From assembly GCA_963663185.1 (NCBI GenBank), contig OY760135.1, forward strand, positions 2,223,611-2,287,610: a DNA stretch of 64,000 nt, written 5' to 3'. Under the pieces are notes generated by a model that was not told where the DNA came from, made no database searches, and saw nothing but the letters and a program-made list of their open reading frames with translations. Made by a program: the position numbers and the translations under genes. Numbering within the stretch: position 1 is the first letter of the stretch; every line of letters begins with the position of its first letter. Shown here in pieces: positions 3,539-62,575 of this stretch. The stretch is from Dehalococcoidia bacterium. Its GTDB lineage: Bacteria; Chloroflexota; Dehalococcoidia; Bin125.

Positions 3539-3850
3539 GGATAAGGCTGGGCCACGCTCTCCGTTCTGCCACCAAACTCGTCCAGCGCCGACAGCAGCCG
3601 CTCACAACATCCAGCCCAGTCGGGGCTTTGTCCAGCATCAGCTCGTCTACGAAGGCGGCGGAGCGAAAACCCGCGCGTCCGACGAGACTGAACGATCACC
3701 GTATTGCGATGCGGGCGCGAGCACCTGGACAAGCAGGTCGACTTCCAGTATCGTTTTCCGAGACGATGCAGCGTTTGCCATGCCGTTTGGCTGGTGAGAC
3801 GGGAGCAACCAGGAGCAGTGAACGGCTCGCGGAGCCGCAGATGGGAGCGG

Positions 3851-5956
3851 ATGATGTTAGGCCAGCACATGTTTACTCACCGAATGCATACCCGCCGAGC
3901 GCTCGCACTGCTGGCGCTGATAATCGTTGCCGCGCTTGCCGTCAATACTGGCGCTAACAGGGGCATCATTCTCGGCGCCGAAGGGCCGAGCCTCACGATC
4001 AGTTCCACTACCGCGGGCGCCATCACCGAGACCCTTGAGAGCGGAACTCAGACTGGCCTGGTTGGGATCAACCTGGTGACCGGGCAGGAAGTGACGTATA
4101 GGTTAGAGACCAATGCGAATTCCAACACTCCTCCATCCGACGTATCCGAAATGTACCTGGACTTATTTTGTCGGTGTAACCGAACGGCCGATGTCGTCTC
4201 GTACACGACCAAAGCCGGGACCCCTGCTGCAACCAAGGTCAGTCTCCCCGATGTGAACGTGAAAATCGAAGGGGCGCCTCTACCGGCAGACGCGTTTCCG
4301 ATCGAGTTCACACTGAAGGGCTTGCGCAGCACTCGATTAACGTCCGGCACAGGCCGAAGCATGACCCCCACGCAGGTGGGTCGTGCCTATACAGCTGCCG
4401 TCTATTGGAAACAAGCTGGCCAGGTGACCAGTAACGGAGTCGTTGGGCGGATCATCGTCCGCGAACGCAGCCATTCCGTAGCTGAAAGCATGATGCAGTA
4501 TGTGTCGATCGATAACGCCGCGGATGTCATGAAAGGCGGCGCCATCAGCTATCCCGTTCGGCTCTCCGACCGGCAGCAACATCCCGTCAACGCGACCCAG
4601 AACATCCATCTCGTCATCACCACCTCCTCCGATTACACGGACACATATGACAATCCCGTGACGCCGCTCAATCAGCACGTTGTGATGATACCGATGGGCG
4701 CATCCTCCACCACGATCTCGGTGCAATCCAGGGCCGATGTGCAAACGCGTCCTGTTGAACGTGTCTACATTAAGGCGTATCTGAGAGACCACCCTGACGG
4801 TGTGACCTTCTTTGATCCATATGAGCAGTTTGATGCGATCGGCAAGGTAGTCGAGGGCACCGCGTTTAGCTTCCTGTACCCAACCTTTGAAGGCGGAGAA
4901 GGAAGCATCATGCCTATTCCGATTCGGGTGGAAGGCAACGTCAATGTGGGCGAGTTCGTGCTGCGATTAAACTTCTCATTCTGGGCGCCGAGGGGGTACT
5001 CCAAGGCCGCGGATGCGAATGATCTGGGGAATATCAGTCAATATGACTGCCGAATCAATCCGACCACACGAGGGGAACATTTGATCAGCCTGCCTCTGCA
5101 TCAGGACAACATGTCCGAACCGTCTGAGGCATTTGTGATGCAGCTGAGTCTGGTCAGCGCGCCCGTCGGTGTGACTGCTAGTGCAACTCCAAACTACTAC
5201 TTCAAGCAAAGGAATCTCGCGTACGGATACATCCATGAACAGCCTCCCTATACGTACCACAACCTCACCTCCGACTGCGTGACGGTTGAGGCACAGGGTT
5301 CCGTTCCAAGTTCCCAGCCGCTGCGTTCTCCAATCAGCTTGGGCGCAAGCGCTATAGCACTCGGTGAGGGCAGCAGCTTCAGTTACGACGTCACGCTCGA
5401 GAGCGACCCAGGCGAGCAGAGAGTGACCGTCACCCCCATCAGCAGCGACGAGGATACCATCGAGTCGCCGACCCCAATCTCGTTTGATTCCGGCAACTGG
5501 GATCAACCACAGCAGGTGATAGTGTCCGCCGCCGCTGATGCCGATGATGAGGATGACGTCGTAATGATCGGACATCGGGTTGAAGGCGTCAACGATGCCC
5601 CGGTCGGGCCGGCTATCTTCGCCACGGTCACGGAGCAACCGACAGTGGGTCTCGACTTGCGTCAGCCCACGCAACGATCATTCGGCGATCAACCATTCTT
5701 CGCCTACTGGATCCGACTTGACCGGCAACCGTCGTCCGATCTCGAAGTCGAACTGGCGCCTGCATCAGATAGCGTTGGCGTACAGTTGCATACAAACAGT
5801 CTCAGCTTCACCACCGAGAACTGGGATCGCTATCAGATCGTGGTACTGAAACCGCTAGACAGTTCTGCCGGCAGCGAGCTCAAGATCACTCACAGCGCGA
5901 CGACTCACATCATCAACAGCGGCGAGTCAGTCTCAGCCACGATCTCAGGTAGCTGA
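3851..5956 (+). CDS. Large secreted or membrane-anchored surface protein with repeated beta-sandwich modules (Calx-beta-like or cadherin-like)
   Basis: Start at MMLGQHMFTHRMHTRRALALLALIIVAALAVNTGA (signal peptide or anchor). Recurrent modules end in ...SEPSEAFVMQLSLVSAP, ...ISFDSGNWDQPQQVIVSAAADADDEDD and ...LSFTTENWDRYQIVVLKPLD. GC is about 55% against about 67% for the flanks. Confidence 0.6.
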   Translation: MMLGQHMFTHRMHTRRALALLALIIVAALAVNTGANRGIILGAEGPSLTISSTTAGAITETLESGTQTGLVGINLVTGQEVTYRLETNANSNTPPSDVSEMYLDLFCRCNRTADVVSYTTKAGTPAATKVSLPDVNVKIEGAPLPADAFPIEFTLKGLRSTRLTSGTGRSMTPTQVGRAYTAAVYWKQAGQVTSNGVVGRIIVRERSHSVAESMMQYVSIDNAADVMKGGAISYPVRLSDRQQHPVNATQNIHLVITTSSDYTDTYDNPVTPLNQHVVMIPMGASSTTISVQSRADVQTRPVERVYIKAYLRDHPDGVTFFDPYEQFDAIGKVVEGTAFSFLYPTFEGGEGSIMPIPIRVEGNVNVGEFVLRLNFSFWAPRGYSKAADANDLGNISQYDCRINPTTRGEHLISLPLHQDNMSEPSEAFVMQLSLVSAPVGVTASATPNYYFKQRNLAYGYIHEQPPYTYHNLTSDCVTVEAQGSVPSSQPLRSPISLGASAIALGEGSSFSYDVTLESDPGEQRVTVTPISSDEDTIESPTPISFDSGNWDQPQQVIVSAAADADDEDDVVMIGHRVEGVNDAPVGPAIFATVTEQPTVGLDLRQPTQRSFGDQPFFAYWIRLDRQPSSDLEVELAPASDSVGVQLHTNSLSFTTENWDRYQIVVLKPLDSSAGSELKITHSATTHIINSGESVSATISGS

Positions 5957-5969
5957 GGGGAGAGCTATC

Positions 5970-6048: not shown

Positions 6049-6178
6049 GGTTGGGGCGGCGCTGCATCCTGGTCGAGAGCGAGCAGCAGAAACTCGTCGC
6101 GTCTCGAACTCGCGCTGGAACTGCTGCTCCAGGTCCCGACCACGGTCGCAGCCCTCAGGGTCACGAGCTGAACAAGGG

Positions 6179-8042: not shown

Positions 8043-9299
8043 TTAAGTGAGCGCGTCGGCGATGGCGAGCTGCGCGATGCGTTCATCGTCGTAACCGAGG
8101 ATGTCGCGCAGGACGAGCTCGTTGTCGCGTCCGATTGACGGTGCCGACGATCGATAGCTCGGCGGCGTCTCCGACATCTGCCCTTTGGCCGCCTCGATCG
8201 TCGTAACGCCATGCACCGGATGCTCCATCGTGATGAAGTGCTGACGGTGTCGCAGCTGCGGATCGTCGGGCGCGACGGAGCTGTTCGAGACGGCGTGAGC
8301 AGGAATGCCGAAGGCTTGCAGCATGTACTCGATCTGGACAGCGTGATGCTGCGCGGTCCAGGCCGCCACCATCTCACTCAGTTCGGTTTCGTGGGACTTG
8401 CGAGCCGCGAGGTCGGCGAAGCGGTCGTCGCAGGTGAGCTCGGCCTGTCCCATCGCCACACAGAGGTTGGCCCAATCCTCGTCGTTGCGGATAGCGATCG
8501 CGACCCAGTCATCATCACCGCTGGCGCGGAAGCAGCCGTGCGGCGCCATGTCGGGGTCCGAGTTGCCAACGAGCTGAGGCACGCGACCGTTGATGGTGTA
8601 GTCGAGCAGCGCCGTTGACATAAAGTGCAGCGATGACTCCGCTTGCGCCTGGTCAATGTAGAGGCCTTCGCCAGTGCGGTCGCGGTGATCGAGCGCTGCC
8701 AGAATCGTCGGCAGCGAGAATCGCGGCGACAGGTAGTCCGTATAGGCGGAGTACGGTCCGACGGGCGCTTCGCCGGGATTGCCGGCGAGTGCGATGTAGC
8801 CGCCGATCGCCGCGCCCATCGTCCCGAAACCGGCCACTCGCGAGAGCGGCCCTTCCTGTCCAAACAGGCAGGTGGAGAGCATGATCAAGTCAGGGTGGGC
8901 TTGGCGCAAGGACTCGTAATCCATGCCCCAGGCGCGCATGGCGCGCGGCGAGAAGGATTCCGCCAGCACGTCGCACCAACCGATCAGGTCGAGCAGGACG
9001 TCGCGCCCCGCCTCGACGCCAAGGTTGAGCGATAGCCCCAGCTTGTTGACGTTCATGTTGCTGAACAGGCCTGAGTGGTCCGGCCCCTGCGCGTTGTGAT
9101 GGAACGGTCCGATCCCGCGCGCGGTTTCGATCCGATTGGCGGACTCGATCCGCACCACGGTGGCGCCGAAGTCGGCCATCGTGCGCGTGGCTGTGGGCCC
9201 CGCGACGACCCACATCAGGTCGAGCACTTTGAGGCCCGCTAACGCTCCGTCCGTCGGAATGCTTGGAATGCTCGGCAGTGGCGTCGTCATCTGATTCAC
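8043..9299 (-). CDS. Family-III CoA-transferase (CaiB/BaiF family)
   Basis: LAGLKVLDLMWVVAGPTATRTMADFGATVVRIE is the typical N-terminus. Full-length, about 410 aa. Confidence 0.85.
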   Translation of the reverse strand: MNQMTTPLPSIPSIPTDGALAGLKVLDLMWVVAGPTATRTMADFGATVVRIESANRIETARGIGPFHHNAQGPDHSGLFSNMNVNKLGLSLNLGVEAGRDVLLDLIGWCDVLAESFSPRAMRAWGMDYESLRQAHPDLIMLSTCLFGQEGPLSRVAGFGTMGAAIGGYIALAGNPGEAPVGPYSAYTDYLSPRFSLPTILAALDHRDRTGEGLYIDQAQAESSLHFMSTALLDYTINGRVPQLVGNSDPDMAPHGCFRASGDDDWVAIAIRNDEDWANLCVAMGQAELTCDDRFADLAARKSHETELSEMVAAWTAQHHAVQIEYMLQAFGIPAHAVSNSSVAPDDPQLRHRQHFITMEHPVHGVTTIEAAKGQMSETPPSYRSSAPSIGRDNELVLRDILGYDDERIAQLAIADALT

Positions 9300-37685: not shown

Positions 37686-39237
37686 TCAGACGCAGGTCGG
37701 CCAGCTCGCGAGCTCTTTGGTTTGGCCGTGAGCCGGAGGTTGGACCGGGAAGCGCTGGACCGATTCCAGTAGCCAGCGACGTGTATCTGCTGGATCGATG
37801 ATCTCGTCCAGGTTCATCAGACCCGCAGCGCCCCATGGCTCGTGCCCGAGCGTCCACTCCGCGATCCGACGCTGTCGCTCTGCCTCCGGGTCGGCGGCGT
37901 TGGCGATGTCTCGCGCGTGCACGACATTGACGCCCACGCCTGGGTCCATGAACGAGATTTCCGCGCCGGGCCAAGCCGTGACGAGCGTGTTGTCGAGGCT
38001 GGCTCCGGAGAGCGAGAAGTACGCCAGGCCGAAGGCCTTGCGCATCACGACCGTGATGCGAGGCACCGTCATCAACGCCAACGCCTCAAGGAACATGATC
38101 GCCTTGTGCAGCAGTCGGGCGTGCTCTGGTTGCGACCCGACGATGAAGCCCGGCACGTCTTGCAGCCAGATCGTAGGGATGTTGAACGCCTCGCACATGC
38201 AGATGAATTGAGTGGCCTTGTCGCAGGTGTTCGGATCGAGCGCGCCGGCGTTGAACATTGGATTGGACGCAAAGATGCCGACCGTCTGGCCGCCAATGCG
38301 CGCAAGCGTGGTGATCAATGAGCGCCCGAAGCGCGGTTTGAGCTCGAAGAGTTCACCGTCATCCACAATACGTTCGATCACGCGGTGCATGTCATAGGCG
38401 CGCTGCCGACGCGTCGGAACGAGGTCTGCGAGGGTGAGATCTGGCTCGGCGTGGGCGTAGCCATCGAGCGTCGGCGGCGTCTGCCAACAGTTGGATGGCA
38501 GGTATGAGAGAAATGTCTTGATCTGGTCAATCGCGTCGTCCTCCGATTCGGCGGCGCGATCGATCTGGCCGGTGACGTCCAGGTGGACATCCACACCGCC
38601 GAGCGCCTCGAGCGAGATGATCTCGCCCGTCGCGATCTCGATGACCCGCGGCGACGACACGTTCAGCGCCGAGCCGCGTACCTGGACGGTGAAGTCTGAG
38701 AATGCGGAGTGGAAGCTGGAGCCGCCAAAGGACTCGCCCGTAATCGCGGTCGCCAGTGGAATCCGCCGCCGTCGGCGAGCGTTCTCGAGTCCGGGCGGAA
38801 TCTTGCTGAAGCCTTCGGAGCCGAGCGCGTCTGGCAATCGAGCGCCGCCGGTCTCGCCGAAGTAGACATAGGGCACGCCCTGCTTGAGCGCCTGCTCGTA
38901 GATCCGCTTCATCCGCTTGCCGCCGACAACCGATGAGGAGCCATGCAGGACCGTGACATCGTCGCCGGCGGCGGTGGCGCTGCGACCGTCAATCGTGCCC
39001 CAACCGCCGATCTTGCCATCGCCCGGCGTGCGATCGCGGACATCTGGCGCCTCGGAGACGGCGAAGGTGCCGATCTCACGGAAACTGCCAGGGTCGAAGA
39101 GCCGGTCGAGCCGCTCGCGGATCGTCAGGCGGCCTTTGGTGTGCTGTCGCGAGATGCGTTCGCTGGAGCCCATCTCGTCGACGATCTTCTGCCGCCGAAG
39201 CGCGAGGTCCTGGCGAATTTGTTGCGCGGTCAGTGTC
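37686..39237 (-). CDS. Acyl-CoA carboxylase carboxyltransferase subunit (PccB/AccD family)
   Basis: Two carboxyltransferase half-domains (...GGARLPDALG... and ...IWLQDVPGFIVGS...). Start at MTLTAQQIRQ. Confidence 0.85.
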
Positions 39238-39402
39238 ATGAATGAATCCAATTGGTGTGGTTGGGGAAGTGCATGTCTCTTGGGGTGCTGAGTTGGCGTG
39301 ACATGCGCCACGCGCTACCACCCTTCACTAAAATTAGCGCCTCAGCCAGTTTCGTTTGAGCAACGCAGCGACCCTCCATGCGGGCACTCCTTGCGACCAT
39401 CC

Positions 39403-42400
39403 TCAGTGATCAGTGATCGCATCCTCCGGCGGCGAGACGGCGATGGCCTCGCCAGTGGATGTCAGCAGCAGGTACGACTCGGCCACTTCGATGCCGGCTT
39501 TCGCGAGCATCGCCGCGTAGCGCTCAACCTGCTGAAAGTAGGCGTCGCGCCGCTTAGGCGGCAATTCGGGATCAGATTTGTAGTCGACGAGCACCCAACC
39601 GTTCGCGTCAAGGAAGAGGAGGTCGGCAATGCCCTCGGTGATCAGCGTGGCGCCGTTCGCGGACTCTTCGATCGTCGTCAGCGGCAACTCGCGGTGGAGC
39701 TGCTGGGCGCGAGCGGCTCGCTGCATCAGGTCGGAGTCGAGCGCGCGCTCAAGCTGTTCGAGCAACGGCTGCGGCGGCAGACGATATCGCTGACAGATGC
39801 GTATCGCTCGCCGTCGCGTGAGCTCGCGATCGCCGAAGTCGCAGGCTTCCAGCGCCTCGTGGACGGCAGACCCGAACTCAAGCGGATTCCAGGCCTGCGG
39901 TTCGTCTTCGGCGGAGTCGCTGAATTCGACTCGGTGCAGCGAAGATGGCGTCGCAGTCGCAATCTGCTCGGCGCCGCCTTCGAGCGCGGCTTGATGGCGC
40001 GCCCGCCACTGCTCGCGAAGCGATGACAGCGGTGGAATCAACACGTTCGCCGGACGCGGTGGGACCGCGTCGAAGCGATCCGCGCCCAGCGCGACGACAT
40101 CCGGATCCGTGTCCGGCTGCAACCAATGCGGTGCGGCGTCTTCGAGATAGCTATAGAACGACTCTCGGTCAGCGACGCTGTCGGCGGGGAACGACGACAG
40201 AATCAGCCAGTCGCGGGCGCGAGTTGCTGCGACGTACAGCATGCGCCGCGACTCTGCATCGACATAGGCGCGTTCACGATGTTGGACTGCGGCAAACCCG
40301 CTGCTCTGAAACACCGCTTGACCTCTGTCGCCGCCGAGCCGCAGCTCAAGCTGCTCGCGGGCGCGGTCGACGATGAACTGCGGTCGCTGGGCCGCGCCCG
40401 GCCGATCCTGCAGCTTGGGCATGATCACGATGGGAAACTCCAGTCCCTTGGCCTGATGAATCGTCAGAATGCGGACGGCGTCGTCATCAGCCTCGGTTGT
40501 GGCGGACTCTGACTCCGGTAAATTACGCAGCCCGCGCTGCGAAAGCCAACGGACGAACGGTCTGAGGCTGTCTTCCCGCTCGTCGGCGAAATTGGCGGCG
40601 CGCAGGACGAGCGAGCGCAGGTTGGCCTGTCGTTGACTCGTCTGCGCCGGGCGTCCGTCGAGCGCCTGCGCCAGCAGCAGACCTGAGCGTCGGATGACGT
40701 GCTCGATCAGATCCGGCAGCCCGAGCGCAGGCAACTCGCCGCGTAGTACTGAGAGCGCCTCGACTGGTTCACGGAGGCGGCCCGCGTAACCTTCGGGCAG
40801 GACTTCAGCGTCCAACAGGATGGGCTGATCGCCCAGCTCTGCCTGGAGCTGGAACAGTTCCTCGTCAGAGGCGGCAGCGAGCGGCGACTTCAGTGTCGCA
40901 ATCGCGGACACGGAATCGGTGGGATCGTCGAGCGCCTGCAAGAGATACGCCAGCGCTCGAATCTCCGCTCGCTGGTAGAAGCCCTGTCCGCTGTCGAAGT
41001 GGTACGGGATGCCTGCGTGATCGAGCGCGTTGGTGTAGACATCGGCCGCCGTGCGCGTGCGGATCAACAATGCCATGTCGCGAAACTGCGGCAGACGCGT
41101 CGCGCCTGCCAACGACAGTTGACCGAGCGAGGAAGCGCCGTCCCGCATGTGCATGATCAAGTTGGCCATCAGGCGCGCTTCGGACTCGCGCGCCTCGCCG
41201 ACCCGACGGAACTGCTCCTGCGAGTCGATCACGGCCACGGCCACGGCAGCGCCGCGTTCGGTGCGATACGGATCGGTGGTCGCCCAGCGAGCCTGGGCGA
41301 GCGGATAGCGCTCGTCCGACTCGATCACGCGAGCGAGGACGCGATTGTGCCAGTGACAGAGCTGTGGTCGAGCGCGAAAGTTGACACTCAGTTGCACCAC
41401 TTCGGCCTCAGCATCCGCCTCGCGAAAGCGCTCGCGTACCTGTTCGTAGATATCGATATCCGCGCGACGGAAGCGATAGATGGCCTGCTTCGGGTCACCG
41501 GAGATGACTAGACGGCCAGGACCAGGCCGAGCGAGCGTCCAGTCATCCGTGTCAGGATCTGCGCTGAGTAGCAGCGCAATCTGTGCTTGCAACGGATCCG
41601 TGTCCTGGAATTCGTCAATCAGAATGGCCCGATAGCGCTCCCGCAGCTCCATACGGACGCCGCTGGAGCGAGCCAGGAGGTCGCGGGTCTCGAGCAGAAG
41701 GTCGTCATAACTGAACACGCCCTCTCGTCGGCGCTGAGCGGCGTCCGAGTCGACGAACTGACGTATGGCGCCGACTAACGCTGCGAGCAGAGCGTCGCGC
41801 TCGACCTGTTCATCCGGCGGATCGGACGGCAAGTCGGCTGGCAAGTCGTCCGGCGGAGTGTCTGACTCGCTACTGACGCGCTCCGCTACGGCTCCTCGGA
41901 GATCGCGGTGCGCAGCGAGCTGCTCGGCCACCGCCTGTAAGTCCCCCAACTCAAGCCCAAGCTCAAGCGCGCGCTGCAATGTTGCTTGGGGCGCGTCGTC
42001 GCTGCTGAGCCATGCGCGCCACGATCGCGCGAAGCGAAGGTCGGCTTGCAGTTGGTCAAGCACGCGGAAGTTGGGATGCAGCGAAGCGTCCAGCGCATGC
42101 TCGCGCAGGATGTTGGCGCAGAATGCGTGGATCGTCTGAATCGGCGCGGCATCGACCTCGCGCAACGCGTGCGGCAGTTGCGCGCGCGCCAACTCCTCTC
42201 GGATGCGTTCGCGCAGCTCGGCGGCGGCCTTTTCCGTGAACGTGATCGCCACAATCTGCGGCAGCGGGACTCCGCTGCGGACGCAATGGACCACTCGCGC
42301 CACGATCACAGACGTCTTACCGGAGCCCGCGCCCGCCTCGATGAAGAACGACGTATCGAGTTCGTTGATGACGCGGTCGCGGACAGCTTGGTCGGCGGGC

Positions 42401-42420
42401 ACAGGCGCCGAGGTCACCAT
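39403..42420 (-). CDS. addA: AddA-type ATP-dependent helicase-nuclease (UvrD-family helicase with a C-terminal RecB-family nuclease)
   Basis: GAGSGKTSV (Walker A), UvrD motifs, and C-terminal ...LVDYKSDPE (nuclease motif III). Confidence 0.85.
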   Translation of the reverse strand: MVTSAPVPADQAVRDRVINELDTSFFIEAGAGSGKTSVIVARVVHCVRSGVPLPQIVAITFTEKAAAELRERIREELARAQLPHALREVDAAPIQTIHAFCANILREHALDASLHPNFRVLDQLQADLRFARSWRAWLSSDDAPQATLQRALELGLELGDLQAVAEQLAAHRDLRGAVAERVSSESDTPPDDLPADLPSDPPDEQVERDALLAALVGAIRQFVDSDAAQRRREGVFSYDDLLLETRDLLARSSGVRMELRERYRAILIDEFQDTDPLQAQIALLLSADPDTDDWTLARPGPGRLVISGDPKQAIYRFRRADIDIYEQVRERFREADAEAEVVQLSVNFRARPQLCHWHNRVLARVIESDERYPLAQARWATTDPYRTERGAAVAVAVIDSQEQFRRVGEARESEARLMANLIMHMRDGASSLGQLSLAGATRLPQFRDMALLIRTRTAADVYTNALDHAGIPYHFDSGQGFYQRAEIRALAYLLQALDDPTDSVSAIATLKSPLAAASDEELFQLQAELGDQPILLDAEVLPEGYAGRLREPVEALSVLRGELPALGLPDLIEHVIRRSGLLLAQALDGRPAQTSQRQANLRSLVLRAANFADEREDSLRPFVRWLSQRGLRNLPESESATTEADDDAVRILTIHQAKGLEFPIVIMPKLQDRPGAAQRPQFIVDRAREQLELRLGGDRGQAVFQSSGFAAVQHRERAYVDAESRRMLYVAATRARDWLILSSFPADSVADRESFYSYLEDAAPHWLQPDTDPDVVALGADRFDAVPPRPANVLIPPLSSLREQWRARHQAALEGGAEQIATATPSSLHRVEFSDSAEDEPQAWNPLEFGSAVHEALEACDFGDRELTRRRAIRICQRYRLPPQPLLEQLERALDSDLMQRAARAQQLHRELPLTTIEESANGATLITEGIADLLFLDANGWVLVDYKSDPELPPKRRDAYFQQVERYAAMLAKAGIEVAESYLLLTSTGEAIAVSPPEDAITDH

Positions 42421-45400
42421 GCCGGCGCCCGCCGACGGCGGATGATCTCGAGGGCGCGCACCGGTTCCGGATGGCGGTTGAGCTTGTGTTGGAATCGATG
42501 GCCGATATCGCTGGCGCAGACGGCGTCGTAGGCGCAGTTGGCGCAGTTGGGACGATCGCGAGGCGGTTGGCCGGGCGTCGCGATGAAGTTGGCGGCCTCG
42601 AGTCCGTCGGCGATCGCAGTGAGCGTATCTCGCAGTCGCTCCGCCGCGCTCGGAGCGTCGACTCCGCCTTGCGTGGTGAGCAGCTCACCACGCAGACGCT
42701 GCGCCGCAAGATGCCCTTCCGCGCCGATGGATTGAAACACCACCTCAGCGTCACGGATCGCGACACCGCGCTCCTGCAGAGCGGCCAATGCGGCGATCGC
42801 CTCCAGCGAGGAGCCATTGACGAATCCCGATGGGTCTGGCAGGCTCGAGCCGCTGACCCAAATCATCGCGCGCTGTCGACCGCTGCGGTGCTGGTCGATG
42901 CGGTCAATGCGACCACGCAACCTGAGTCGACGATTCCTGCTCACTCGGACAGTTGCGTCGGAATAGTCAACGCTCACCGCAATCGGGCGCCAACCATCGC
43001 GCGACTCGCTCAGCTCGCGCCGACGCACATGCTCAAGGTCCGCGCAGACCCGATCGCTGATGCGCTGCTCGACCGCGGGCGGTTCGGCCTCGCTCAGCCC
43101 AAGCTCATCCGCGACGACTCGCGCCGCGATTTCGCGCAGCAGCGGCGCCTGAGCGGCATAGTCGCGCCACGTCTGATCTTCAGGCGACTCGAGATGGCGG
43201 CGACTCCATTCGCGCAACGCGCGTCTCGCGAGCTCCCCGATCTGCGCATGCTGACGCTGGTTCGGGCGATCCGCAGCCTCTGCAGCCTCGGCAACGGTCG
43301 AATGAAGGACGTGTTGGAGGAAGAACTGATACGGACATGTGACATACGTCTCCAGCGCGGATGCGCTCCACGCCTGCTCGAGCGGTCGCCATGGCCTCTT
43401 GCTCGCTGATCGGTCGAGCAAGCCGTCGAACTCGGTGAATTGCGATGCGTTGCGCCGTCTGCGGGCATGATCGGCCTGCTCGGCCGCCGGCCAGATCAAT
43501 GGCGACAGCGCCCGTCCGTCCACCCCAGGCGCCGATAGCAGTGCCAGGTCGAGCGACTGCAGATCGCCCGCCGACAGCGGCAACCGCCAGTCGTCAGCAA
43601 CGACCTGATCAGGCCCTGGCGTCACCGTCGTCGCGGCGGATGGCAGTCGGCGAATGCGACCGCGCTGGCTCAAATCTGACTCCGAATAGGGAGCATCAGC
43701 CGGATCAAGCGTGGCTGACGCAGCCTCCAGCAACAGGTTTGACGCGTGGCTGGGACCTCCAATCGCGCTACTGCGTCGACTCCAACCCGCCACGAAGCGT
43801 TGACGCGCCGCTCGTCGCATCAGCGACCAGACATGCCGGTCCGTGTCGGCGCGGTCGCGTTGCAGCGGCAGCGCATTCGGGACACGCCGATTGATCGCCG
43901 AGCGCGCGGCATCGGAGAACAGCGAGTCCTGTCGCGCGACAGCGGGGAAGATGCGCTCTGCGACATCGGCTGCGAACACGGCGTCGTAGCGGATGCCTCG
44001 CGCCGGGCCAGCCGCCGCGCCGACGTTGACGCCGCCAACCAGTCGCCGCGGATCCCGCACGACGCGTCCGCCGAATGCGCGCCGCAGTGCCATGAGACCT
44101 TCGCTGGCGACCCATGGTCGGCCCAGCTGATCGTGATCGCGCAGATCACTCAGAGTTTCGCGCGAAGCCTCAAAGCTGGCGGTGTCGTTGCTTGACTCGT
44201 CCAGGTAGGTGTCGAACGCGTCCACGAGCCGTGCCGATGCGGTCTGCCACGATTGACATGATTGACTTGTCGCCAGCGCGCGCGCCCGATCGGAGAGATC
44301 GGCGATGATCGTTTCAAGGCCGTCGGTTGCGTCGGACGTGTCGTCGGCGAGCGTCCTGAGACGTTCGCGCAGAGCGTGAAGTCCGCCGGAACGTCCCAGC
44401 TCGAGGCCGTACGGTTCCCAGCGCACGGGTCGTCGGACGACGTTGAGCGGACGGGCGCGCAATGCGCGATGCGAGAGCCAGTCGAGGCATTCACTCGGTT
44501 GCGCGCGGTCAGGGTCGAGCAACAGCTCCACCAGTCCCAGCGTGGCGCGTCCGATCGACGTGAGGCTGAGCTGTCGGCCGGCAATGCGCCAGCTCGGAAC
44601 ATCGGCGCGTTCAAGCGCCGCGCAAATGCGGTCGTCCGCAGGTGCTCCGAGCTGATGGAAGACGGCCGCGCGACGCCACACGAGCCCATCGTTCGCCATT
44701 TCCAGGATGAGTCGCGCAATCTCGTCCGCCTCAGCCGTCGGGTCACCCACGCTGAAGTAGTGGTCGGGAGCAAGCGGCATCGCCGACAGCTTCGAGCGGA
44801 CGATCCGCGCGCCAGTCTCGCGTTGGAGCGTTGCAGCCGTCTGCATCGGCAGCGTCTGCGGATCGTCGAACGGCGCGACGAGCAGCATTCGGACATCGGT
44901 CGCGTCGGCGATGCGTCCAAGCAGGAGTCGCTGAATCCGCGTGAGGTCGTACATGCCAGAGACGACGAGCGGCGCGTCACCCAACGCCGCCCGATACGCG
45001 TCTGCGCCGGTGATGGGACTGACCGCATCTTCGTAGCGAGCGGTGCGGTCATTGCAGTCGCCGACGGTTTCGCGCCAGGCGCGAAAGACCGTCTGAAGGT
45101 CGCCGCGCGGCAGATCGTCCGGGCTGAGCGCGGCCTCGCGCAGATCCGTGAGCGCTCGCAGCATCGCGCCGGCCAGTCCCGGCCCTGCGGGATCAAATTG
45201 TTGCAGAGACAGCGTAGGCAGCAGCTCGCTGAGCACAGCAAGGTCGGCGCCCGGCGGCCAACGATGACGCGGCGGCGCGTCGCCGTGCAGAGCGGCGGCC
45301 TGGGCGATATCAACCGGTGTGAATCCGTAGACCGCAGCCAGCCCACCGCCGCTGGCCTCTGCAAGCATGCGTTGGCTCGACAGACGCTGCAGCGCGGAGC

Positions 45401-56059: not shown

Positions 56060-56992
56060 ATGACGGCTGTGAAATTTGGCGCGCAGGTGTCGGCCTATCT
56101 GACGTCCTGGGATGAGATCCGCGCAGTCGCGCAGGCGATGGACGCCGGTCGCTACGACTCGATCTGGTTCGCCGATCACTTCGTGCCGCCCAATCGCGGC
56201 AAAGCGGTTGAAGGACGCGAGGCCTTCGAGGCCTTTGCGCTGGCCGCGGCGGTAGCCGCCTGCACCGAAACGCTGCGGATCGGACATCTCGTGCTCGGTA
56301 ACACCTACCGCAACCCGGGACTCGTCGCCAAAATCGCCGGTTCGGTGGATCATATTTCGCACGGTCGATTCACGCTCGGCATCGGCGCCTCGTGGTTTCG
56401 TCGCGAGCACGCCGCCTACGGTTGGGACTTCCCCAGCATGAAAGAGCGTCAGGATCGATTCGAGGAAGCGTGCCAGCTACTGCGTAACATCATTCATGCC
56501 GACGGCGCCAACATCACCTTCAACGGTCAGTACTACTCGTTGGACGACGCGCCGCTCTCGCCCGCAAGTTACAGCCATCCAATCCCGATCCTCGTCGGCG
56601 GAACGGGCCCCCGGCGCACGTTAAGAACGCTGGCCAAGTACGGCGATATTATGAACCTCGATGGCTGGGCGGGCCGAGGTATGTCGGTTGCGCTCCTGAA
56701 CGAGAAGGTCGATATCCTGCACGCGCACTGCGAGGACCTCGGACGAGATCCATCTGAGATCAAGATCACCGCATTGATGCCATGCCTGCTCACAAATGAC
56801 GAGTCCGAGGCGAGGGCATGGGAAGAACGAATCGGACCCGGCACCTTGAACGGAACGGCAGATCAGATCGCGCAGCGAATCGGAGAGTTTGTCGAGTACG
56901 GCATTGACGAGATCATGTTCGGTCGGCGAGGCGATAACGATCCGGAGTACTTCCAGCGTCTGGACGACGAGGTCATCGCGCAGTTCCGCTAG
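56060..56992 (+). CDS. LLM-class (luciferase-like) F420-dependent oxidoreductase
   Basis: ...DSIWFADHF...GHLVLGNTYRNPGLVAK...LGIGASW... Confidence 0.85.
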   Translation: MTAVKFGAQVSAYLTSWDEIRAVAQAMDAGRYDSIWFADHFVPPNRGKAVEGREAFEAFALAAAVAACTETLRIGHLVLGNTYRNPGLVAKIAGSVDHISHGRFTLGIGASWFRREHAAYGWDFPSMKERQDRFEEACQLLRNIIHADGANITFNGQYYSLDDAPLSPASYSHPIPILVGGTGPRRTLRTLAKYGDIMNLDGWAGRGMSVALLNEKVDILHAHCEDLGRDPSEIKITALMPCLLTNDESEARAWEERIGPGTLNGTADQIAQRIGEFVEYGIDEIMFGRRGDNDPEYFQRLDDEVIAQFR

Positions 56993-57183
56993 ACCGCGGC
57001 GGCTGCTTTGCGATATCGGCGCGGCATGTTTCCTGGCTTGAAGGCTCCGGGAGTCGTCGTTGGCAAACCCGCGCTCAGAGGCGTAGGTTGAGTGGGACAA
57101 GTCAAGAGAAAGGAGGGCGAAACCAGTCGAACGAGCGCCCCGCTCATCGAGGCACGGCCGCAATCACCGAGAGGAAGGACGTC

Positions 57184-58005
57184 ATGACGTTGCTGCCGAT
57201 GGCCACCAGAATCCGCCTCAAGCTCCGCCCGCAACGAGCGAGCATCATTCTGCCCAATGTCGCCGCGGCGGCGTTGCTCGCTGCTCTCAGCATGGACTCC
57301 GGTCAGGCCGACGCCCAGGAGTCCCCTTCCAATCCGTACGACGGTCTTCCACCAATCTCGATGAGCGTCTTCCTTGACGTCCTTGAACGGCAGGGCTCCC
57401 TAACAAAGACCACTGCAGCTCCGAGCGGCGAATGCTCGCTCTTTCTTACCCTGACACATGATTCTCGGGGTGCAGCCACCCTGCCTGCTAACACAACCAC
57501 TGTTCCTGTCACATGCACAGTATCGGCAAGTCCCACGCCGCAAGAACCACGAGGGACCATGGTTGGAGTCGCGACCACCGGAAACTGTGAGGCCGTAACT
57601 ATAGTGTTCAAGGATGATATTAGCCCGAGATCTTCGACCGACACTTCTGGCGGGAACGGTGCAGGTGGTATGAACGGCGAGGAATATCTACAACGGCGCA
57701 CTATCAAAGCGAAGATTAAGGTAATTGATTTGATTAGCCTGAACATCATCAGGGATGCTACGACTCTGAGCTGGAGCTACTCAAGTATCCGTGTATCCGA
57801 GGGTCACGCTGCGTGGGAACGGTCGCACAGCCGGTACTGGGATGAACCCACGGTTACGGAACAGCTGATAACCACGTCCCCAGTTCAGTACACTGCCTAT
57901 TCAAGTGCGATTTGGCACTCAGATGGATTGTTCTTCGACGATTCTCCCGACGTAGACATCGTCACGAGGGCCACGGCATTCGGATTCGCTGATGGTAGAG
58001 GATAG
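57184..58005 (+). CDS. Secreted hypothetical protein in a low-GC islet
   Basis: Start at MTLLPMATRIRLKLRPQRASIILPNVAAAALLAALSMDSGQADA (signal peptide). Four Cys. No recognised motif. Confidence 0.5.
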   Translation: MTLLPMATRIRLKLRPQRASIILPNVAAAALLAALSMDSGQADAQESPSNPYDGLPPISMSVFLDVLERQGSLTKTTAAPSGECSLFLTLTHDSRGAATLPANTTTVPVTCTVSASPTPQEPRGTMVGVATTGNCEAVTIVFKDDISPRSSTDTSGGNGAGGMNGEEYLQRRTIKAKIKVIDLISLNIIRDATTLSWSYSSIRVSEGHAAWERSHSRYWDEPTVTEQLITTSPVQYTAYSSAIWHSDGLFFDDSPDVDIVTRATAFGFADGRG

Positions 58006-58207
58006 TGCAGCTTCCGTATGACGGGAATCGTTGTGCCAAGAGTGTATCACTCATTTGGAACGGACATTGCCAAGGATAGGTGTGACTCGGAGTCGACGCT
58101 CATCGCAACCGCTATCCCTGCGCTGTTAGATAGCAGGTCAATGATAGTGAGTCAATGTGGTTATGGCGACGTGCATCGCAGGTCGCCTCTCGGCTTGGTG
58201 AGTAGCG

Positions 58208-58471
58208 ATGTCTGAAGTGATTCCACTTCGCCGAAAGAGCAGTGGACTTGGCTATCTTCTAGTCCTTCTCGGCGCTGCCATGTTTGCCTTTGGCTGGCTT
58301 GGGTTCTCCATTGTCGCATTTGCCATACTGATTGGGGGCGCAGTCGCGTTCGTCGTTGGACTGTTCCTGCTCAGACCTACAGGATGGACGCTCTTTTGGC
58401 TCGTTCTCGCCGTTGGGTTCGTGACGTTCCCGGTCTGGTTCTTCCTCCTGGTGGCTGCGCTCATCGATTGA
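58208..58471 (+). CDS. Small 3-TM membrane protein, hypothetical
   Basis: 87 aa, three hydrophobic helices. In the same low-GC islet. Confidence 0.4.
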   Translation: MSEVIPLRRKSSGLGYLLVLLGAAMFAFGWLGFSIVAFAILIGGAVAFVVGLFLLRPTGWTLFWLVLAVGFVTFPVWFFLLVAALID

Positions 58472-59762
58472 ATGTCTGGCGCATCACAAACGGCTGCGGC
58501 AACCGACTCGCGATCAGGAAGACCACGCTGCTCCCCAGCGCGCAGCAGGCGTAGATGATCAATACCAGGTCGTAGTTACCGTTCTGGTCGTAGATCGTTC
58601 CCGCGATGATGGGCGAGAAGAAGATGGCGATCGTCTGGAACATGAACGCTGTGCCCATGATCGTCGCGAAGTTGGACAGTCCGAAGGCGCGCGAGATGAT
58701 TAGCGCCTCCAGCGGCGGCGTCGCCGCGAAGCCGATCACGTACAGCACGACGGCGATTGCCACGCCCGGAATCGATCCCTGCGCCACGTACAGCACCACG
58801 AGCGCCGCCGCCACGAACAGCACGCAGATGCTCGCCACCCGCTCCGGCCGACGGAATCGTTCCAACTGCGTGCCCGCCGACAGCAGCCAGATGACCGCTC
58901 CGCCGGCGGTCAGCGACACGATCTGCGCAGCCCACGTCTCCGAAAAGCCGACTGATCGGTAATAGGGCACACCCTGTGACAACCAGCCAAAGATGACGAA
59001 GAAGAACAGCATCAGCCCTCCCACGATCGCCCAGAACAGCGGCGTGCGGATCGCCTCTCGCAGAGTCAGGCCGGGCAGAATCACGGGTTGGGAATCCGAA
59101 GTGGAGCGTTGGCTGGCGAGCTCAGCCTCGCTGGGCCGATCGCGCACGAGCGCAAAAGCGACTACGTAGGCAATCAGCACGAAGATGGCAGAGTAGAGGA
59201 ACGCGTCCCGCCAGCCCAGGCTGGTAATGATGATCTGCACCACGGGCAGCATGATCAGCTGCCCCATCCAGACTGAGGCGCCAATGATGCTGGCCGCGAC
59301 CGCTCGCTTCTCGTCGAACCAACGCACGGCCAACGACTGCGCCGGGATGTAGGCGACCAGCCCCAGGGCGAACGAGGACAGGCCCAGGTAGACGTACCAC
59401 TGCCAGAGCTGCGTCATGAACGCCAGCAGCACGAACGCGACCGCGCAGAGCGGTGCGCCGAGCAGCATCAATCGCCGCGGTCCGACCGAATCCACCAATC
59501 GGCCAATGATCGGCGCGAACAGTCCGACCGCGCCGACCGTGACCGAAAATCCCAACGAAACCTGGGCCCGACTCCAACCGAATCGTTGCTCGAGCGGCTC
59601 AATGTAAGCGCTGAGCGAGCCGAACGTGACGCCCTCGGCGATGATCAAGGCGATCACCATCCCGGTCAGCACCCACCAGCCGTAGTAGACGCGGCTCAGC
59701 CCGAAACGTCCTCTCCGCTTCGTCGCATCAGTCGTCGCTTCAGGCGCGAGCTCAATGGCCAT
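58461..59762 (-). CDS. MFS transporter (12 TMS). Oxalate:formate antiporter family is possible.
   Basis: ...GRLVDSVGPRRLMLLG... MFS motif. An OFA-type assignment is inference only. Confidence 0.8.
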   Translation of the reverse strand: MAIELAPEATTDATKRRGRFGLSRVYYGWWVLTGMVIALIIAEGVTFGSLSAYIEPLEQRFGWSRAQVSLGFSVTVGAVGLFAPIIGRLVDSVGPRRLMLLGAPLCAVAFVLLAFMTQLWQWYVYLGLSSFALGLVAYIPAQSLAVRWFDEKRAVAASIIGASVWMGQLIMLPVVQIIITSLGWRDAFLYSAIFVLIAYVVAFALVRDRPSEAELASQRSTSDSQPVILPGLTLREAIRTPLFWAIVGGLMLFFFVIFGWLSQGVPYYRSVGFSETWAAQIVSLTAGGAVIWLLSAGTQLERFRRPERVASICVLFVAAALVVLYVAQGSIPGVAIAVVLYVIGFAATPPLEALIISRAFGLSNFATIMGTAFMFQTIAIFFSPIIAGTIYDQNGNYDLVLIIYACCALGSSVVFLIASRLPQPFVMRQTFNR

Positions 59763-61044: not shown

Positions 61045-61100
61045 GGAGAACTGCATTGCAAGTGAGATGGACGACAGCGATTTAGTGAAGTGAGCATGGA

Positions 61101-62042
61101 GTGAGCGAATCGCCCCCCGATCCGTGGTTGGAGTTCTCTTTCGATGGACCCGATGGTTCAGCGATAGACGCTCGAGCCGCGGGGCAACTGCTTCTTGACT
61201 TGACAGCGGCGGCAAGGCAGATTGCAGCCGATATTCTGGATTTGCCCGAACCGAAAGGGCCGATGAGTGCAGAAGAACGTGCACTTGCTGCGTTGACGCT
61301 GAAAACCATTGGGCCAGGCAGCATTGCCCGAGTGGAGCTTGCTCCACCTGCGACGGAACCTGCCAGCCAATTGGTCCTTGGTGACGAAGTCGTACTACTA
61401 CCTACGGCAAATCAAGTGATTCATCAACTTGAGCTTGATCTCCTCGAATCGGCGAATGGAGCAATGCCACATAGACCAAAGAGGCGAGAGTCGATTGTGG
61501 CGCTGCAAAAGTCCCTGACGCGTATTGCACCCACAGTTTCCATCGGTGGCACGTATACAGGAGAGTTTAGAAGGCTCGCGGTCTATCGCAGGGAGCCCAA
61601 GGAGAAGACTCCTATCGAGGTGACAGAGCGTCGAGTATATTTCGGCCGCGCAACAATGGCAGACTCCGATCCCGGCCGCCGCAGACTACGAGCGACACTG
61701 TACGACGGCAGGAGGTTCCTGCTGGATGTAGCAGATGACTTCGCTATTCCCCTTTCAGACATCTTCGATCGAGACGTTGAGTTTAGAGTAGTTGACACGA
61801 TTGATGCGGGAGTAGTCGTCAAGAGTACTGTTGACGCAGTCAGACCGCTGGAGCCAGCGGAAGTCGGGATCGACTTCCCTGCGAGAGACTGGCGAAGACT
61901 GGCGAAAGAACAAGGTATCGACTTGGTCGAGCCGCCGGACTATGTCCAATTACTACAGGAGCTGTTTGATTCCGAAAGCGAGATTGACGCGTTCAAGCAT
62001 CACATAGTTGCCTCCAGGGGCGGTTATGAGCCCGATGACTGA
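61101..62042 (+). CDS. Hypothetical 313-aa protein (GTG start), first gene of a low-GC two-gene cassette
   Basis: Intact ORF. No motif recognised. Its stop is overlapped by the start of the PIN gene. Confidence 0.55.
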   Translation: MSESPPDPWLEFSFDGPDGSAIDARAAGQLLLDLTAAARQIAADILDLPEPKGPMSAEERALAALTLKTIGPGSIARVELAPPATEPASQLVLGDEVVLLPTANQVIHQLELDLLESANGAMPHRPKRRESIVALQKSLTRIAPTVSIGGTYTGEFRRLAVYRREPKEKTPIEVTERRVYFGRATMADSDPGRRRLRATLYDGRRFLLDVADDFAIPLSDIFDRDVEFRVVDTIDAGVVVKSTVDAVRPLEPAEVGIDFPARDWRRLAKEQGIDLVEPPDYVQLLQELFDSESEIDAFKHHIVASRGGYEPDD

Positions 62043-62523
62043 TCAACTTCCTTTGTCCATAGATACTAATGTTGTGAGCAGGGTTATAAGTAACCGTGAT
62101 CCGCTGCAGGCGCAGTATGCACAGCGATTGAGTGGCCGTACTCTCGCAGTAACTTACTTCACGCGGGCTGAGTTGGAGTCCGCAGAGTGGACGCCCGAAA
62201 AACAAAATGCTGTCGCCTCATTCTTGGCTCAATGTATCAAACTCGATAACCCGGGCGATGCCACGAGGGTCTGGTTTGCGAGGGCAAAACGAGTCCGTGC
62301 CAGATTGAACTTGGATAAAGGCGCCGAACGGGAGGATCTGTGGATGCTTGCGCAAACCGTGGAGCACCGACTGCCGATCATTAGTCACGATTACAATGCT
62401 GTCCGAGTAGCCAGGGGTCTCGGCGTGGATTGGAGCGCGACCCTGCTCGATCGGGTCAAATTAAGCGACTATTTCGCAGAGGACGATCGCGCTCTGAGTA
62501 AGCGACCATTGCCGTCTGATTAG
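62035..62523 (+). CDS. PIN-domain nuclease (VapC-like toxin fold)
   Basis: MTDQLPLSIDTNVV (D), ...FTRAELES (E), ...EREDLWMLAQT (D), ...PIISHDYN (D). The ATG lies inside the last codons of the upstream gene. Confidence 0.65.
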   Translation: MTDQLPLSIDTNVVSRVISNRDPLQAQYAQRLSGRTLAVTYFTRAELESAEWTPEKQNAVASFLAQCIKLDNPGDATRVWFARAKRVRARLNLDKGAEREDLWMLAQTVEHRLPIISHDYNAVRVARGLGVDWSATLLDRVKLSDYFAEDDRALSKRPLPSD

Positions 62524-62575
62524 ACTAATGCCAGGCATCCTCTTTGGATGCGGAGTGAGACTGGAGTTTGCAACC

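What the first reader, a model, noticed from the sequence alone, without database searches (positions are those of the whole stretch)
61045..62575. Low-GC two-gene cassette: an unknown 313-aa protein overlapping a PIN-domain nuclease gene
GC is about 52% against a background of about 67%. The PIN ORF's ATG lies within the last codons of the 313-aa ORF (...gATGACTGA), which suggests tight coupling. The order (a large unknown protein first, then the PIN toxin) and the size of the first gene are unlike classic VapBC pairs, where the antitoxin is 70-90 aa. The cassette is flanked by an 8-bp direct repeat (ggagtgag at about 61098 and about 62552) that could mark an insertion, though that could also be chance. 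It may be an atypical toxin-antitoxin pair or a defence pair.
Basis: seen in the sequence. Interest (0 to 1): 0.55.

Follow-up and report, generated by a model that had tools for sequence, protein, structure and literature searches.

The report
PIN toxin with novel large partner
This is a real, conserved two-gene cassette in a Chloroflexota genome: a PIN-type RNA-cutting enzyme always encoded just after an uncharacterised 313-residue protein, most likely an unusual toxin-antitoxin pair with a new kind of antitoxin.

Summary
Gene A (61101-62042, 313 aa) overlaps a PIN gene (62035-62523) by 8 nt. The cassette is the lowest-GC 1.5 kb stretch of the window: 54.3% against a mean of 63.4%.

Both genes are under purifying selection (dN/dS 0.26 and 0.12). 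The PIN keeps all four catalytic acidic residues. A matches nothing in Pfam, NCBIfam, PHROGs, PADLOC or PDB sequences. It defines a family of about 64 clusters; every named member is from Chloroflexota/Dehalococcoidia.

In every testable locus, 17 from genomes and assemblies plus 27 from metagenomes, an A homologue is followed at once by a PIN gene, even at about 25% identity.

An AlphaFold model (pLDDT 85.6) gives three parts: a novel N-terminal alpha/beta domain, an OB-like barrel and an acidic helical tail. Natural short forms keep OB plus tail, or N1 plus tail. The tail is therefore the constant element and the likely PIN-neutralising segment.

In related genomes the cassette sits in the same slot but diverges far faster than its flanks. 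Elsewhere it lies in unrelated contexts.

The 8-bp flanking repeat is at chance level.

Best reading: a VapBC-like toxin-antitoxin or defence module with a new multidomain antitoxin. This is a new variant of a known kind and has not been tested experimentally.

The parts
61045..61100 (+). 56-bp intergenic region between the Amidohydro_2 stop and the start of gene A. A cassette promoter or ribosome-binding site would lie here, but none was identified.
   Evidence: no sigma-70-like promoter inside this stretch and no palindromic operator. The only feature is a short tandem TGAAGTGAGC/TGGAGTGAGC at 61086-61106. The region is not conserved in relatives.
61101..62042 (+). Gene A: 313-aa acidic protein (pI 4.8), the putative multidomain antitoxin or regulator of the PIN nuclease.
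   Evidence: ORF. The GTG start corresponds to the ATG of homologues that all begin MSES/MADS..PW. No family match. Homologues. dN/dS 0.26. AlphaFold model with pLDDT 85.6.
61101..61595 (+). A residues 1-165: N-terminal alpha/beta domain with conserved motifs (PW.EF, GVD, IGPGS, APP). It is an optional accessory domain.
   Evidence: Secondary structure beta-alpha-alpha-beta-beta-alpha-alpha-beta-beta, pLDDT mostly 80-97. Absent from natural 129-161 aa short forms, including the one in the same syntenic slot in L009. No PDB sequence match.
61620..61847 (+). A residues 174-249: OB-like five-stranded barrel (beta1-3, short helix, beta4-5) carrying the family motif R.R..FG.A.M.D..PGR.RLR..L.DG.
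   Evidence: Model. Foldseek PDB top hits are all OB folds: LysRS/AspRS anticodon-binding domains, ExoVII, CST, eIF1A, SSB, CusF. E values are 2e-3 to 2e-2 and probabilities mostly 0.9-1.0; none is below 1e-3. BFVD hits include SSB, LEF-3 and ligase OB domains.
61848..62039 (+). A residues 250-313: acidic helical C-terminal tail (pI 4.3; motif PPK/ARDW..LA.EQG......PDY..L...F.SE.E..AF......R). Proposed PIN-binding and neutralising segment.
   Evidence: This is the only segment kept in every variant that is still paired with a PIN gene: full length, OB+tail, and N1+tail (P0051, still followed by a PIN). pLDDT is lower, 42-84. Charge values.
62035..62042 (+). 8-nt overlap ATGACTGA: the PIN start codon lies inside the last codons of gene A.
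   Evidence: The same 8-nt overlap is seen in L002-L005, L007 and L009.
62035..62523 (+). PIN-domain (VapC-like) nuclease, 162 aa, pI 7.9. Catalytic D10 (62062-62064), E46 (62170-62172), D101 (62335-62337), D119 (62389-62391).
   Evidence: Pfam PIN 22.5 bits, E 1.9e-4. 9 of 16 relatives match PIN. Weak matches to VapC structures 6nkl and 3dbo. Acidic residues invariant. dN/dS 0.12.
62524..62575 (+). 52-bp spacer before the Abhydrolase_10 gene (ATG at 62576). It contains the second GGAGTGAG copy and a GGAG 9 nt upstream of that ATG.
   Evidence: No terminator-like site between the PIN stop and the next gene. In relatives this spot holds 5' remnants of the Abhydrolase_10 gene and inserted genes.

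Best explanation
The cassette is a VapBC-like type II toxin-antitoxin module, possibly used for defence, with an unusual antitoxin.

The downstream gene encodes a catalytically competent PIN endoribonuclease, the toxin. The upstream, translationally coupled gene encodes a 313-aa acidic protein that keeps the toxin inactive.

The most likely mechanism is that the acidic helical C-terminal tail of A (about residues 256-307) binds the PIN and occludes its acidic active-site groove, as the C-terminal segment of VapB does. The OB-like barrel and the optional N-terminal domain would add a second function: oligomerisation, nucleic-acid or operator binding, or sensing of a trigger that releases the nuclease.

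Shown here: gene order and overlap; intact catalytic residues; strict co-occurrence and co-divergence of the two genes; purifying selection; the modular architecture of A with the tail as the constant element; atypical composition; fast divergence in a fixed slot; scattered genomic contexts.

Inferred: toxicity, neutralisation by the tail, an RNA target, and any role for the OB and N-terminal domains.
For: 1. Architecture. The partner gene is upstream on the same strand with an 8-nt overlap. This matches the antitoxin-first, overlapping layout described for vapBC operons (PMC5499597).

2. The PIN looks active. D10, E46, D101 and D119 are invariant in 16 relatives. Pfam PIN matches 9 of 16 relatives and the partners of distant A homologues.

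3. Obligate pairing. All 17 genome and assembly loci and all 27 testable metagenome loci have a PIN ORF directly downstream. In the seven genome loci examined the gap is +8 to +26 nt. Pairing holds even where A is only 23-30% identical to the window protein.

4. Co-divergence. Pairwise identities of each A domain correlate with those of the PIN, r = 0.88-0.95.

5. Charge. A is acidic (pI 4.76; tail 4.32) and the PIN is mildly basic (7.88).

6. Modularity. The same syntenic slot in L009 holds a 155-aa partner made of OB plus tail. P0051, made of N1 plus tail, is still followed by a PIN with a 4-nt overlap. The tail is the shared element.

7. Accessory-gene behaviour. Cassette GC3 is 0.50-0.72 against 0.75-0.93 for nearly all flanking genes, in every genome examined. 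Flanking proteins are 87-93% identical where A is 54-65% and the PIN 64-72% identical. In L016 the flanks are 75-89% identical where the cassette is 31-36%. Distant members sit in unrelated contexts, one beside an integrase and a relaxase, one beside an MmeI-like methyltransferase.

8. Both genes are under purifying selection (dN/dS 0.26 and 0.12).
Against: A lacks what defines a classic VapB. It is 313 aa rather than 70-100 aa. No AbrB, RHH, HTH, Phd or UPF0175 domain was detected. No palindromic operator or recognisable promoter lies in the 56-bp upstream spacer.

No model of the complex could be made, so tail-PIN binding is inference.

The cassette is retained in all seven syntenic genomes examined. 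That also fits a useful cellular function.

The window PIN itself scores just below the Pfam gathering threshold.

The OB assignment rests on Foldseek E values of 2e-3 or weaker.
Confidence: 0.6

Rival explanations
1. Two-subunit nuclease rather than toxin-antitoxin. A is a positive specificity or activation subunit. Its OB-like barrel binds the RNA or ssDNA substrate and presents it to the PIN active site, as RNA-binding barrels do in fused PIN-TRAM or Rrp44-type proteins. The complex would have a cellular RNA-processing or nucleic-acid surveillance role.
For: The OB-like fold's closest structural matches are nucleic-acid-binding OB domains (tRNA synthetase anticodon-binding domains, SSB, ExoVII, eIF1A). 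The pair has been retained long-term in one chromosomal slot across diverged relatives. Both genes are under purifying selection. PIN-TRAM fusions exist (PMC5499597).
Against: The OB segment is not basic (pI 5.25) and A as a whole is acidic. The OB can be deleted while the pairing with the PIN persists (P0051). The family is small and taxonomically narrow: 64 clusters among 1.84 billion representatives. It has atypical GC3, diverges much faster than its neighbours and has scattered contexts. These are traits of accessory conflict genes, not housekeeping genes.
Confidence: 0.17
2. Dedicated anti-phage abortive-infection system. A is a sensor-inhibitor whose N-terminal domain and/or OB barrel recognises a phage protein or nucleic acid and then releases the PIN to degrade RNA. 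This is a special case of the toxin-antitoxin reading, with defence as the selected function.
For: The cassette diverges much faster than its flanks within a fixed slot, and alternative 'alleles' occupy that slot: the 313-aa form, a 155-aa form and a 31%-identical form. In relatives the adjacent slot has picked up GmrSD, HSDR_N, Fic and HNH-methylase genes. One distant member lies beside an MmeI-like methyltransferase. The best BFVD structural match for the whole protein is an uncharacterised phage protein (E 1.7e-7).
Against: No match to any PADLOC model beyond a spurious NsnC hit in 2 of 46 members. Most distant members lie between ordinary metabolic genes. No relative was found on viral contigs. 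There are no phage-challenge data.
Confidence: 0.2
3. A recently inserted foreign island, bounded by the 8-bp direct repeat GGAGTGAG as a target-site duplication.
For: The cassette is the lowest-GC stretch of the window, and the repeat is present at both ends.
Against: The 8-mer count is at chance level: 4 observed against 2.5 expected. The repeat is absent from relatives. The cassette occupies the same slot in relatives that diverged long ago, so it predates their divergence. The first copy overlaps the start codon. No mobility gene is present.
Confidence: 0.03

Closest known systems
VapBC type II toxin-antitoxin systems (PIN/VapC toxin, PF01850, with a VapB antitoxin)
   Same: A PIN toxin of about 160 aa with the four acidic catalytic residues. 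The partner gene lies upstream, overlapping and on the same strand. The partner is acidic and the nuclease is mildly basic. It is a stand-alone two-gene cassette in scattered contexts with atypical composition.
   Different: The partner is 313 aa, with no AbrB, RHH, HTH, Phd or UPF0175 DNA-binding domain. Instead it has a novel N-terminal alpha/beta domain, an OB-like barrel and a three-helix tail of about 55 aa. The overlap is 8 nt rather than 1 or 4. No operator palindrome was found.
Toxin-antitoxin systems with large multidomain antitoxins, such as AbiEi/AbiEii and DarTG. This comparison comes from my own knowledge and was not tested here.
   Same: A large antitoxin of about 300 aa with a separable neutralising part and extra domains. 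These systems are often linked to phage defence.
   Different: The toxin class differs (nucleotidyltransferase or ADP-ribosyltransferase rather than PIN), as do the antitoxin folds (winged helix or macrodomain). No sequence or profile similarity was detected.
PIN-TRAM proteins (COG4956/YacL-type) and other PIN nucleases linked to RNA-binding beta-barrels
   Same: A PIN nuclease functionally linked to a small beta-barrel of the OB/TRAM kind (PMC5499597).
   Different: Here the barrel is on a separate upstream protein, is not basic, and can be lost. There are no transmembrane helices. This family is narrow and fast-evolving, not broadly conserved.
Menshen NsnC (PADLOC PDLC03913)
   Same: Only a weak PADLOC match (E 0.008, 14 bits) to the middle of A.
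   Different: Only 2 of 46 family members match. No NsnA (ParB-DUF262) or NsnB (ABC ATPase) gene is nearby. NsnC carries an inactive PIN fused to a nuclease (PMC12065111), which is not the case here.

Membership tests
PIN domain, VapC-like group (PF01850) | Match to the Pfam PIN model at or above the gathering score | tested here: inconclusive
   The window protein scores 22.5 bits against a cut-off of 23.6 (E 1.9e-4). 9 of 16 close relatives match at E<=0.01, best 4.7e-7. The L010 partner PIN scores 24.8 bits, above the cut-off.
PIN domain, VapC-like group (PF01850) | Four conserved acidic active-site residues (D-E-D-D) | tested here: met
   D10, E46, D101 and D119 are invariant in alignment A2. 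They align with the catalytic positions of VapC structures 6nkl and 3dbo. The requirement is as stated in PMC5499597.
PIN domain, VapC-like group (PF01850) | Compact alpha/beta/alpha PIN fold | not tested
VapBC type II toxin-antitoxin operon | [quoted passage not shown] | tested here: met
   8-nt overlap in the window. Same order in all 44 testable loci. Co-transcription itself cannot be tested here.
VapBC type II toxin-antitoxin operon | [quoted passage not shown] | tested here: not met
   A is 313 aa. No Pfam or NCBIfam domain is found in A or in any of 46 family members. The predicted fold is a novel alpha/beta domain plus an OB-like barrel.
VapBC type II toxin-antitoxin operon | C-terminal segment of the antitoxin binds the toxin and blocks its active site | tested here: inconclusive
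   The acidic helical tail is conserved and is the only segment common to all natural variants that are still paired with a PIN. No complex model or binding data exist.
VapBC type II toxin-antitoxin operon | Toxin arrests growth; antitoxin neutralises it; the complex autoregulates the operon | not testable with these tools
   This needs expression and binding experiments. The scan found no operator-like palindrome upstream.
OB-fold nucleic-acid-binding domains | Five-stranded closed barrel with a helix between strands 3 and 4 | tested here: met
   Met on the model only. Strands at 174-188, 195-200, 205-210, 225-235 and 238-249, with a helical turn at 218-220. All top Foldseek PDB hits are OB folds, with probabilities mostly 0.9-1.0 but E values of 2e-3 or weaker.
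OB-fold nucleic-acid-binding domains | Binds ssDNA or RNA | not testable with these tools
   The segment is slightly acidic (pI 5.25), which does not favour binding, although several arginines are conserved.
Menshen (NsnABC) defence system | NsnA (ParB-DUF262), NsnB (ABC ATPase) and NsnC (inactive PIN plus effector nuclease) encoded together | tested here: not met
   There is only a 14-bit NsnC match, found in 2 of 46 members. The neighbouring genes are Amidohydro_2, MFS and Abhydrolase_10. System definition from PMC12065111.

The most novel reading that the evidence does not exclude
Protein A founds a new class of 'sensor antitoxin'. A toxin-specific acidic tail is combined with an OB-like barrel and a previously unseen N-terminal domain. 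These two domains detect an infection cue (a phage protein or nucleic acid) and then release the PIN nuclease. The fixed chromosomal slot holding fast-diverging alternative versions would then be an immune locus under diversifying selection in Chloroflexota.
Probability: 0.2. Interest if true: 0.65.

Novelty: new variant of a known kind. Interest (0 to 1): 0.42.

Why it matters
PIN/VapC toxins are the largest toxin family in prokaryotes, but their known antitoxins fall into a handful of small DNA-binding folds.

This cassette adds a partner family with no database annotation. It has an OB-like barrel, a modular neutralising tail and an optional novel domain, and it comes from Chloroflexota, a phylum with almost no experimental toxin-antitoxin or defence biology.

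If the tail alone neutralises the PIN, the natural long, short and deleted forms offer a ready-made series for studying how antitoxins gain sensor or regulatory domains.

The locus also shows a chromosomal slot whose accessory pair diverges several times faster than its neighbours. That is a useful marker for conflict loci in uncultured lineages.

Tried and rejected
- Family libraries for A. Pfam, NCBIfam, PHROGs, PADLOC and PDB sequences gave nothing credible. The PADLOC NsnC hit was rejected: it appears in 2 of 46 members and there are no NsnA or NsnB genes.
- The search for related loci with the broad alignments A3 and A4 failed for lack of a conserved 7-10 residue stretch. It worked with subgroup alignment A5.
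- Viral contigs held no relative.
- Operator, promoter and terminator scans and repeat search in and around the cassette found nothing above chance. The upstream spacers of relatives are not conserved.
- The mirror-tree test, meant to show which A domain co-evolves most with the PIN, did not discriminate: every domain gave r of about 0.9.
- hhalign of A against the PIN family, to test for a hidden inactive PIN in A, was negative.
- hhalign of A against the 127-aa partner of a more distant PIN (L008) gave only a weak collinear match over the OB segment (E 0.0076, probability 5%). It is suggestive only.
- The BFVD hit Q6NE06 was followed into the Leptospira phage LE1 genome. A 381-aa hypothetical gene (LE1-0037) lies next to a DUF4365 gene and an MmeI restriction-modification gene. 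I could not verify that it is Q6NE06, and there is no sequence similarity to A.
- P0076 (Zn-ribbon-like N-terminus plus tail) turned out to be an orphan remnant between transposases, with no PIN downstream.
- Literature searches found no description of an OB-fold antitoxin for VapC or of this family.
Full report
**Observation**

Gene A runs 61101..62042 (GTG start, 313 aa). A PIN ORF ends at 62523. Homologues of A all begin at the equivalent codon, mostly with ATG, so 61101 is the true start. The conserved PIN start is the ATG at 62035, and A's TGA is at 62040-62042. The genes therefore overlap by 8 nt (ATGACTGA).

The stretch 61045-62575 is 54.3% GC. The window mean is 63.4% (sd 2.4%) and the flanks are 65.4% and 65.9%. 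It is the lowest-GC stretch of its size in the 64 kb. GC3 is 0.54-0.56, against 0.80-0.89 in the flanking genes.

The 8-mer GGAGTGAG is present at 61098 and 62552. It occurs 4 times in the window against 2.5 expected, and 28 of 100 shuffles reach that count. It does not appear in the aligned intergenic regions of relatives. I treat it as chance.

**Both genes are real**

Against a relative whose A protein is 90% identical (L047), dN/dS is 0.26 for A and 0.12 for the PIN.

The PIN scores 22.5 bits on Pfam PIN, just under the 23.6 cut-off. However, 9 of 16 relatives match the model, best E 4.7e-7. The best PDB sequence matches include the VapC structures 6nkl and 3dbo. The four catalytic acidic residues (D10, E46, D101, D119) are invariant. 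It looks like an active VapC-like nuclease in the sense of PMC5499597.

**Protein A is an unannotated family**

A has no credible match in Pfam, NCBIfam, PHROGs, PADLOC or PDB sequences, either alone or across 46 family members. The single weak PADLOC hit (NsnC, Menshen system) appears in only 2 of 46 members, and no NsnA or NsnB gene is nearby, so I rejected it.

The word-indexed search found 7 homologues at 47-90% identity. An exhaustive profile search of 1.84 billion cluster representatives found 64 (44 at E<=1e-10). Most are about 310 aa, with a set of 129-161 aa proteins that match only the C-terminal half. All members with organism names are Chloroflexota or Dehalococcoidia MAGs.

I built HMMs of both families and scanned all fetched loci. 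In the window and in L001-L007 and L009-L016, the A homologue is followed directly by a PIN ORF on the same strand.

A metagenome scan added 29 loci. In 27, a PIN follows immediately. The other two end at the contig edge and cannot be tested. One of the 27 PINs is frameshifted.

So every testable locus has the pair, including pairs where A is only 23-30% identical to the window protein. In the seven more distant genome loci (L010-L016) the PIN start lies 8 to 26 nt after the A stop codon; the closer loci keep the 8-nt overlap. The distant PINs also match Pfam PIN. Pairwise identities of A, for every domain, correlate with those of the PIN at r = 0.88-0.95. The two genes have evolved as a unit.

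**Genomic behaviour**

In six fetched relatives' loci (L004, L005, L007, L006, L009, L016) the pair occupies the same slot: MFS, Amidohydro_2, A, PIN, then Abhydrolase_10. It is not a recent insertion in this genome.

The cassette nevertheless diverges far faster than its neighbours:

| Relative | Flanking proteins | A | PIN |
|---|---|---|---|
| L004, L005, L007 | 87-93% identical | 54-65% | 64-72% |
| L016 | 75-89% identical | 31% | 36% |

In L009 the same slot holds a 155-aa partner that aligns only to A residues about 165-313.

Low GC3 of the pair relative to its neighbours holds in every genome examined, near or distant. More distant members lie in unrelated contexts. Most are between metabolic genes. 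One lies beside a phage-type integrase and a relaxase-like gene, and one beside an MmeI-like methyltransferase. No relative was found on viral contigs.

This combination is typical of toxin-antitoxin or defence genes, not housekeeping ones: a self-contained two-gene unit, compositionally atypical, fast-diverging, scattered, yet persistent.

**Architecture of A**

With the 46-sequence alignment, AlphaFold2 gives mean pLDDT 85.6. The model has three parts:

- an N-terminal alpha/beta domain (residues 1-165);
- a low-confidence linker, then a five-stranded barrel with a helical turn between strands 3 and 4 (174-249);
- three C-terminal helices (264-305) with lower confidence.

Foldseek against the PDB returns OB folds almost exclusively: LysRS/AspRS anticodon-binding domains, ExoVII, CST, eIF1A, SSB and CusF. 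Probabilities are mostly 0.9-1.0, but E values are only 2e-3 to 2e-2. I call the barrel OB-like, not a proven OB member.

Against viral models, two uncharacterised phage proteins align over about 300 columns (E 1.7e-7 and 4.2e-5). The other hits are SSB, LEF-3 and ligase OB domains. I followed one into Leptospira phage LE1 and found only an unverified lead.

A is acidic overall (pI 4.76), its tail more so (4.32), and the PIN is mildly basic (7.88).

**Natural variants point to the tail as the essential element**

- Short forms keep the OB barrel plus the tail.
- P0051 keeps only the first 95 residues plus the tail. It is still followed by a PIN with a 4-nt overlap.
- P0059 keeps the N-terminal domain plus the tail.
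- Several variants that lack the tail have R/S-rich C-termini that look like frameshift products (P0044, P0063); others (P0048, P0069) end before the tail and may be truncated at contig edges.

One tail-containing fragment, P0076, sits between transposases with no PIN. It looks like a remnant.

**Mechanism**

I commit to a VapBC-like toxin-antitoxin module. The PIN is the RNase toxin. A is a large modular antitoxin whose acidic helical tail binds and blocks the PIN. The OB-like barrel and the N-terminal domain supply oligomerisation, nucleic-acid binding or trigger sensing.

- Shown: layout, catalytic residues, obligate pairing, co-divergence, modularity, charge, selection and genomic behaviour.
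- Inferred: toxicity, neutralisation by the tail, the RNA target, and any function for the extra domains.
- Against a strict VapB identity: A's size, the absence of any known antitoxin DNA-binding domain, and the lack of an operator or promoter signal in the 56-bp spacer.

Rivals are:

- a two-subunit nuclease in which the OB presents the substrate;
- a dedicated abortive-infection system in which A senses phage, which is a subtype of the main reading;
- a recent island bounded by the 8-bp repeat, which the evidence contradicts.

**Novelty and verdict**

Searches of the held literature found no OB-fold antitoxin for VapC and no description of this family.

It is best filed as a new variant of a known kind: a PIN toxin with a new multidomain antitoxin family confined to Chloroflexota. 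It is moderately interesting. It would be more so if the extra domains prove to be a sensor.

Noticed in passing
L002-L004 9468-9650; L006 9498-9818; L009 about 8540-8600; L047 about 1595-1640 (compare window 62576 onward): In relatives, short remnants of the 5' end of the Abhydrolase_10 gene lie directly after the PIN gene. Extra genes follow (CoA_trans in L002-L005 and L007; GmrSD in L006) before the intact Abhydrolase_10 gene. The spot just downstream of the cassette seems to be an insertion hotspot that duplicates the gene's start. The window has the uninterrupted arrangement.
   Followed up: partly
window 61101-61262; L001 393-1346: In the identical public contig L001, gene A was called as 259 aa, starting at the internal Met55. 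This may explain why one search found no 100%-identical match for the 313-aa protein. The 54 missing N-terminal residues are well conserved across the family (W9, E11, G16, D23, R25), so the public call is probably too short.
   Followed up: partly
window about 3500-6100 and about 56500-58500: Two more low-GC patches (0.56-0.57). The first holds a 750-aa ORF (3704..5956). The second holds a 305-aa ORF (57088..58005) and an 87-aa hydrophobic, membrane-like ORF (58208..58471). None has a Pfam match. In relatives the region upstream of the MFS gene holds a different gene (MR_MLE), so the second patch is also variable.
   Followed up: partly
window 61101-62523 compared with L047 120-1578: Synonymous divergence from the closest relative is about three times higher in the PIN gene (dS 0.53) than in gene A (dS 0.17). 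This could reflect a recombination breakpoint inside the cassette.
   Followed up: no
L008 7611-8483: A more distant PIN of the same family (P0021, 40% identical) is preceded by a 127-aa protein. That protein aligns only weakly (hhalign E 0.0076) but collinearly with the OB segment of A. A short OB-plus-tail partner may therefore be the ancestral form. A HigB-like toxin gene lies 4 kb upstream.
   Followed up: partly
L046 (Leptospira phage LE1, BX571876) 38280-43418: A 381-aa hypothetical gene (LE1-0037) lies directly after a DUF4365 gene and an MmeI-type restriction-modification gene. It is probably, but not verifiably, the BFVD structural match Q6NE06. If so, a protein with an A-like fold sits in a phage defence cluster.
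   Followed up: partly
L035 1971-2437; proteins P0044, P0063; L048 2501-2848: Decayed copies of the family exist: a frameshifted PIN, frameshifted A genes with R/S-rich out-of-frame tails, and an orphan tail fragment between two transposase genes. The module is sometimes lost.
   Followed up: partly
window 61886-61905: A perfect tandem duplication of 10 nt (AGACTGGCGA twice) inside gene A, within the codons for the conserved DWRRLAKE tail motif.
   Followed up: no
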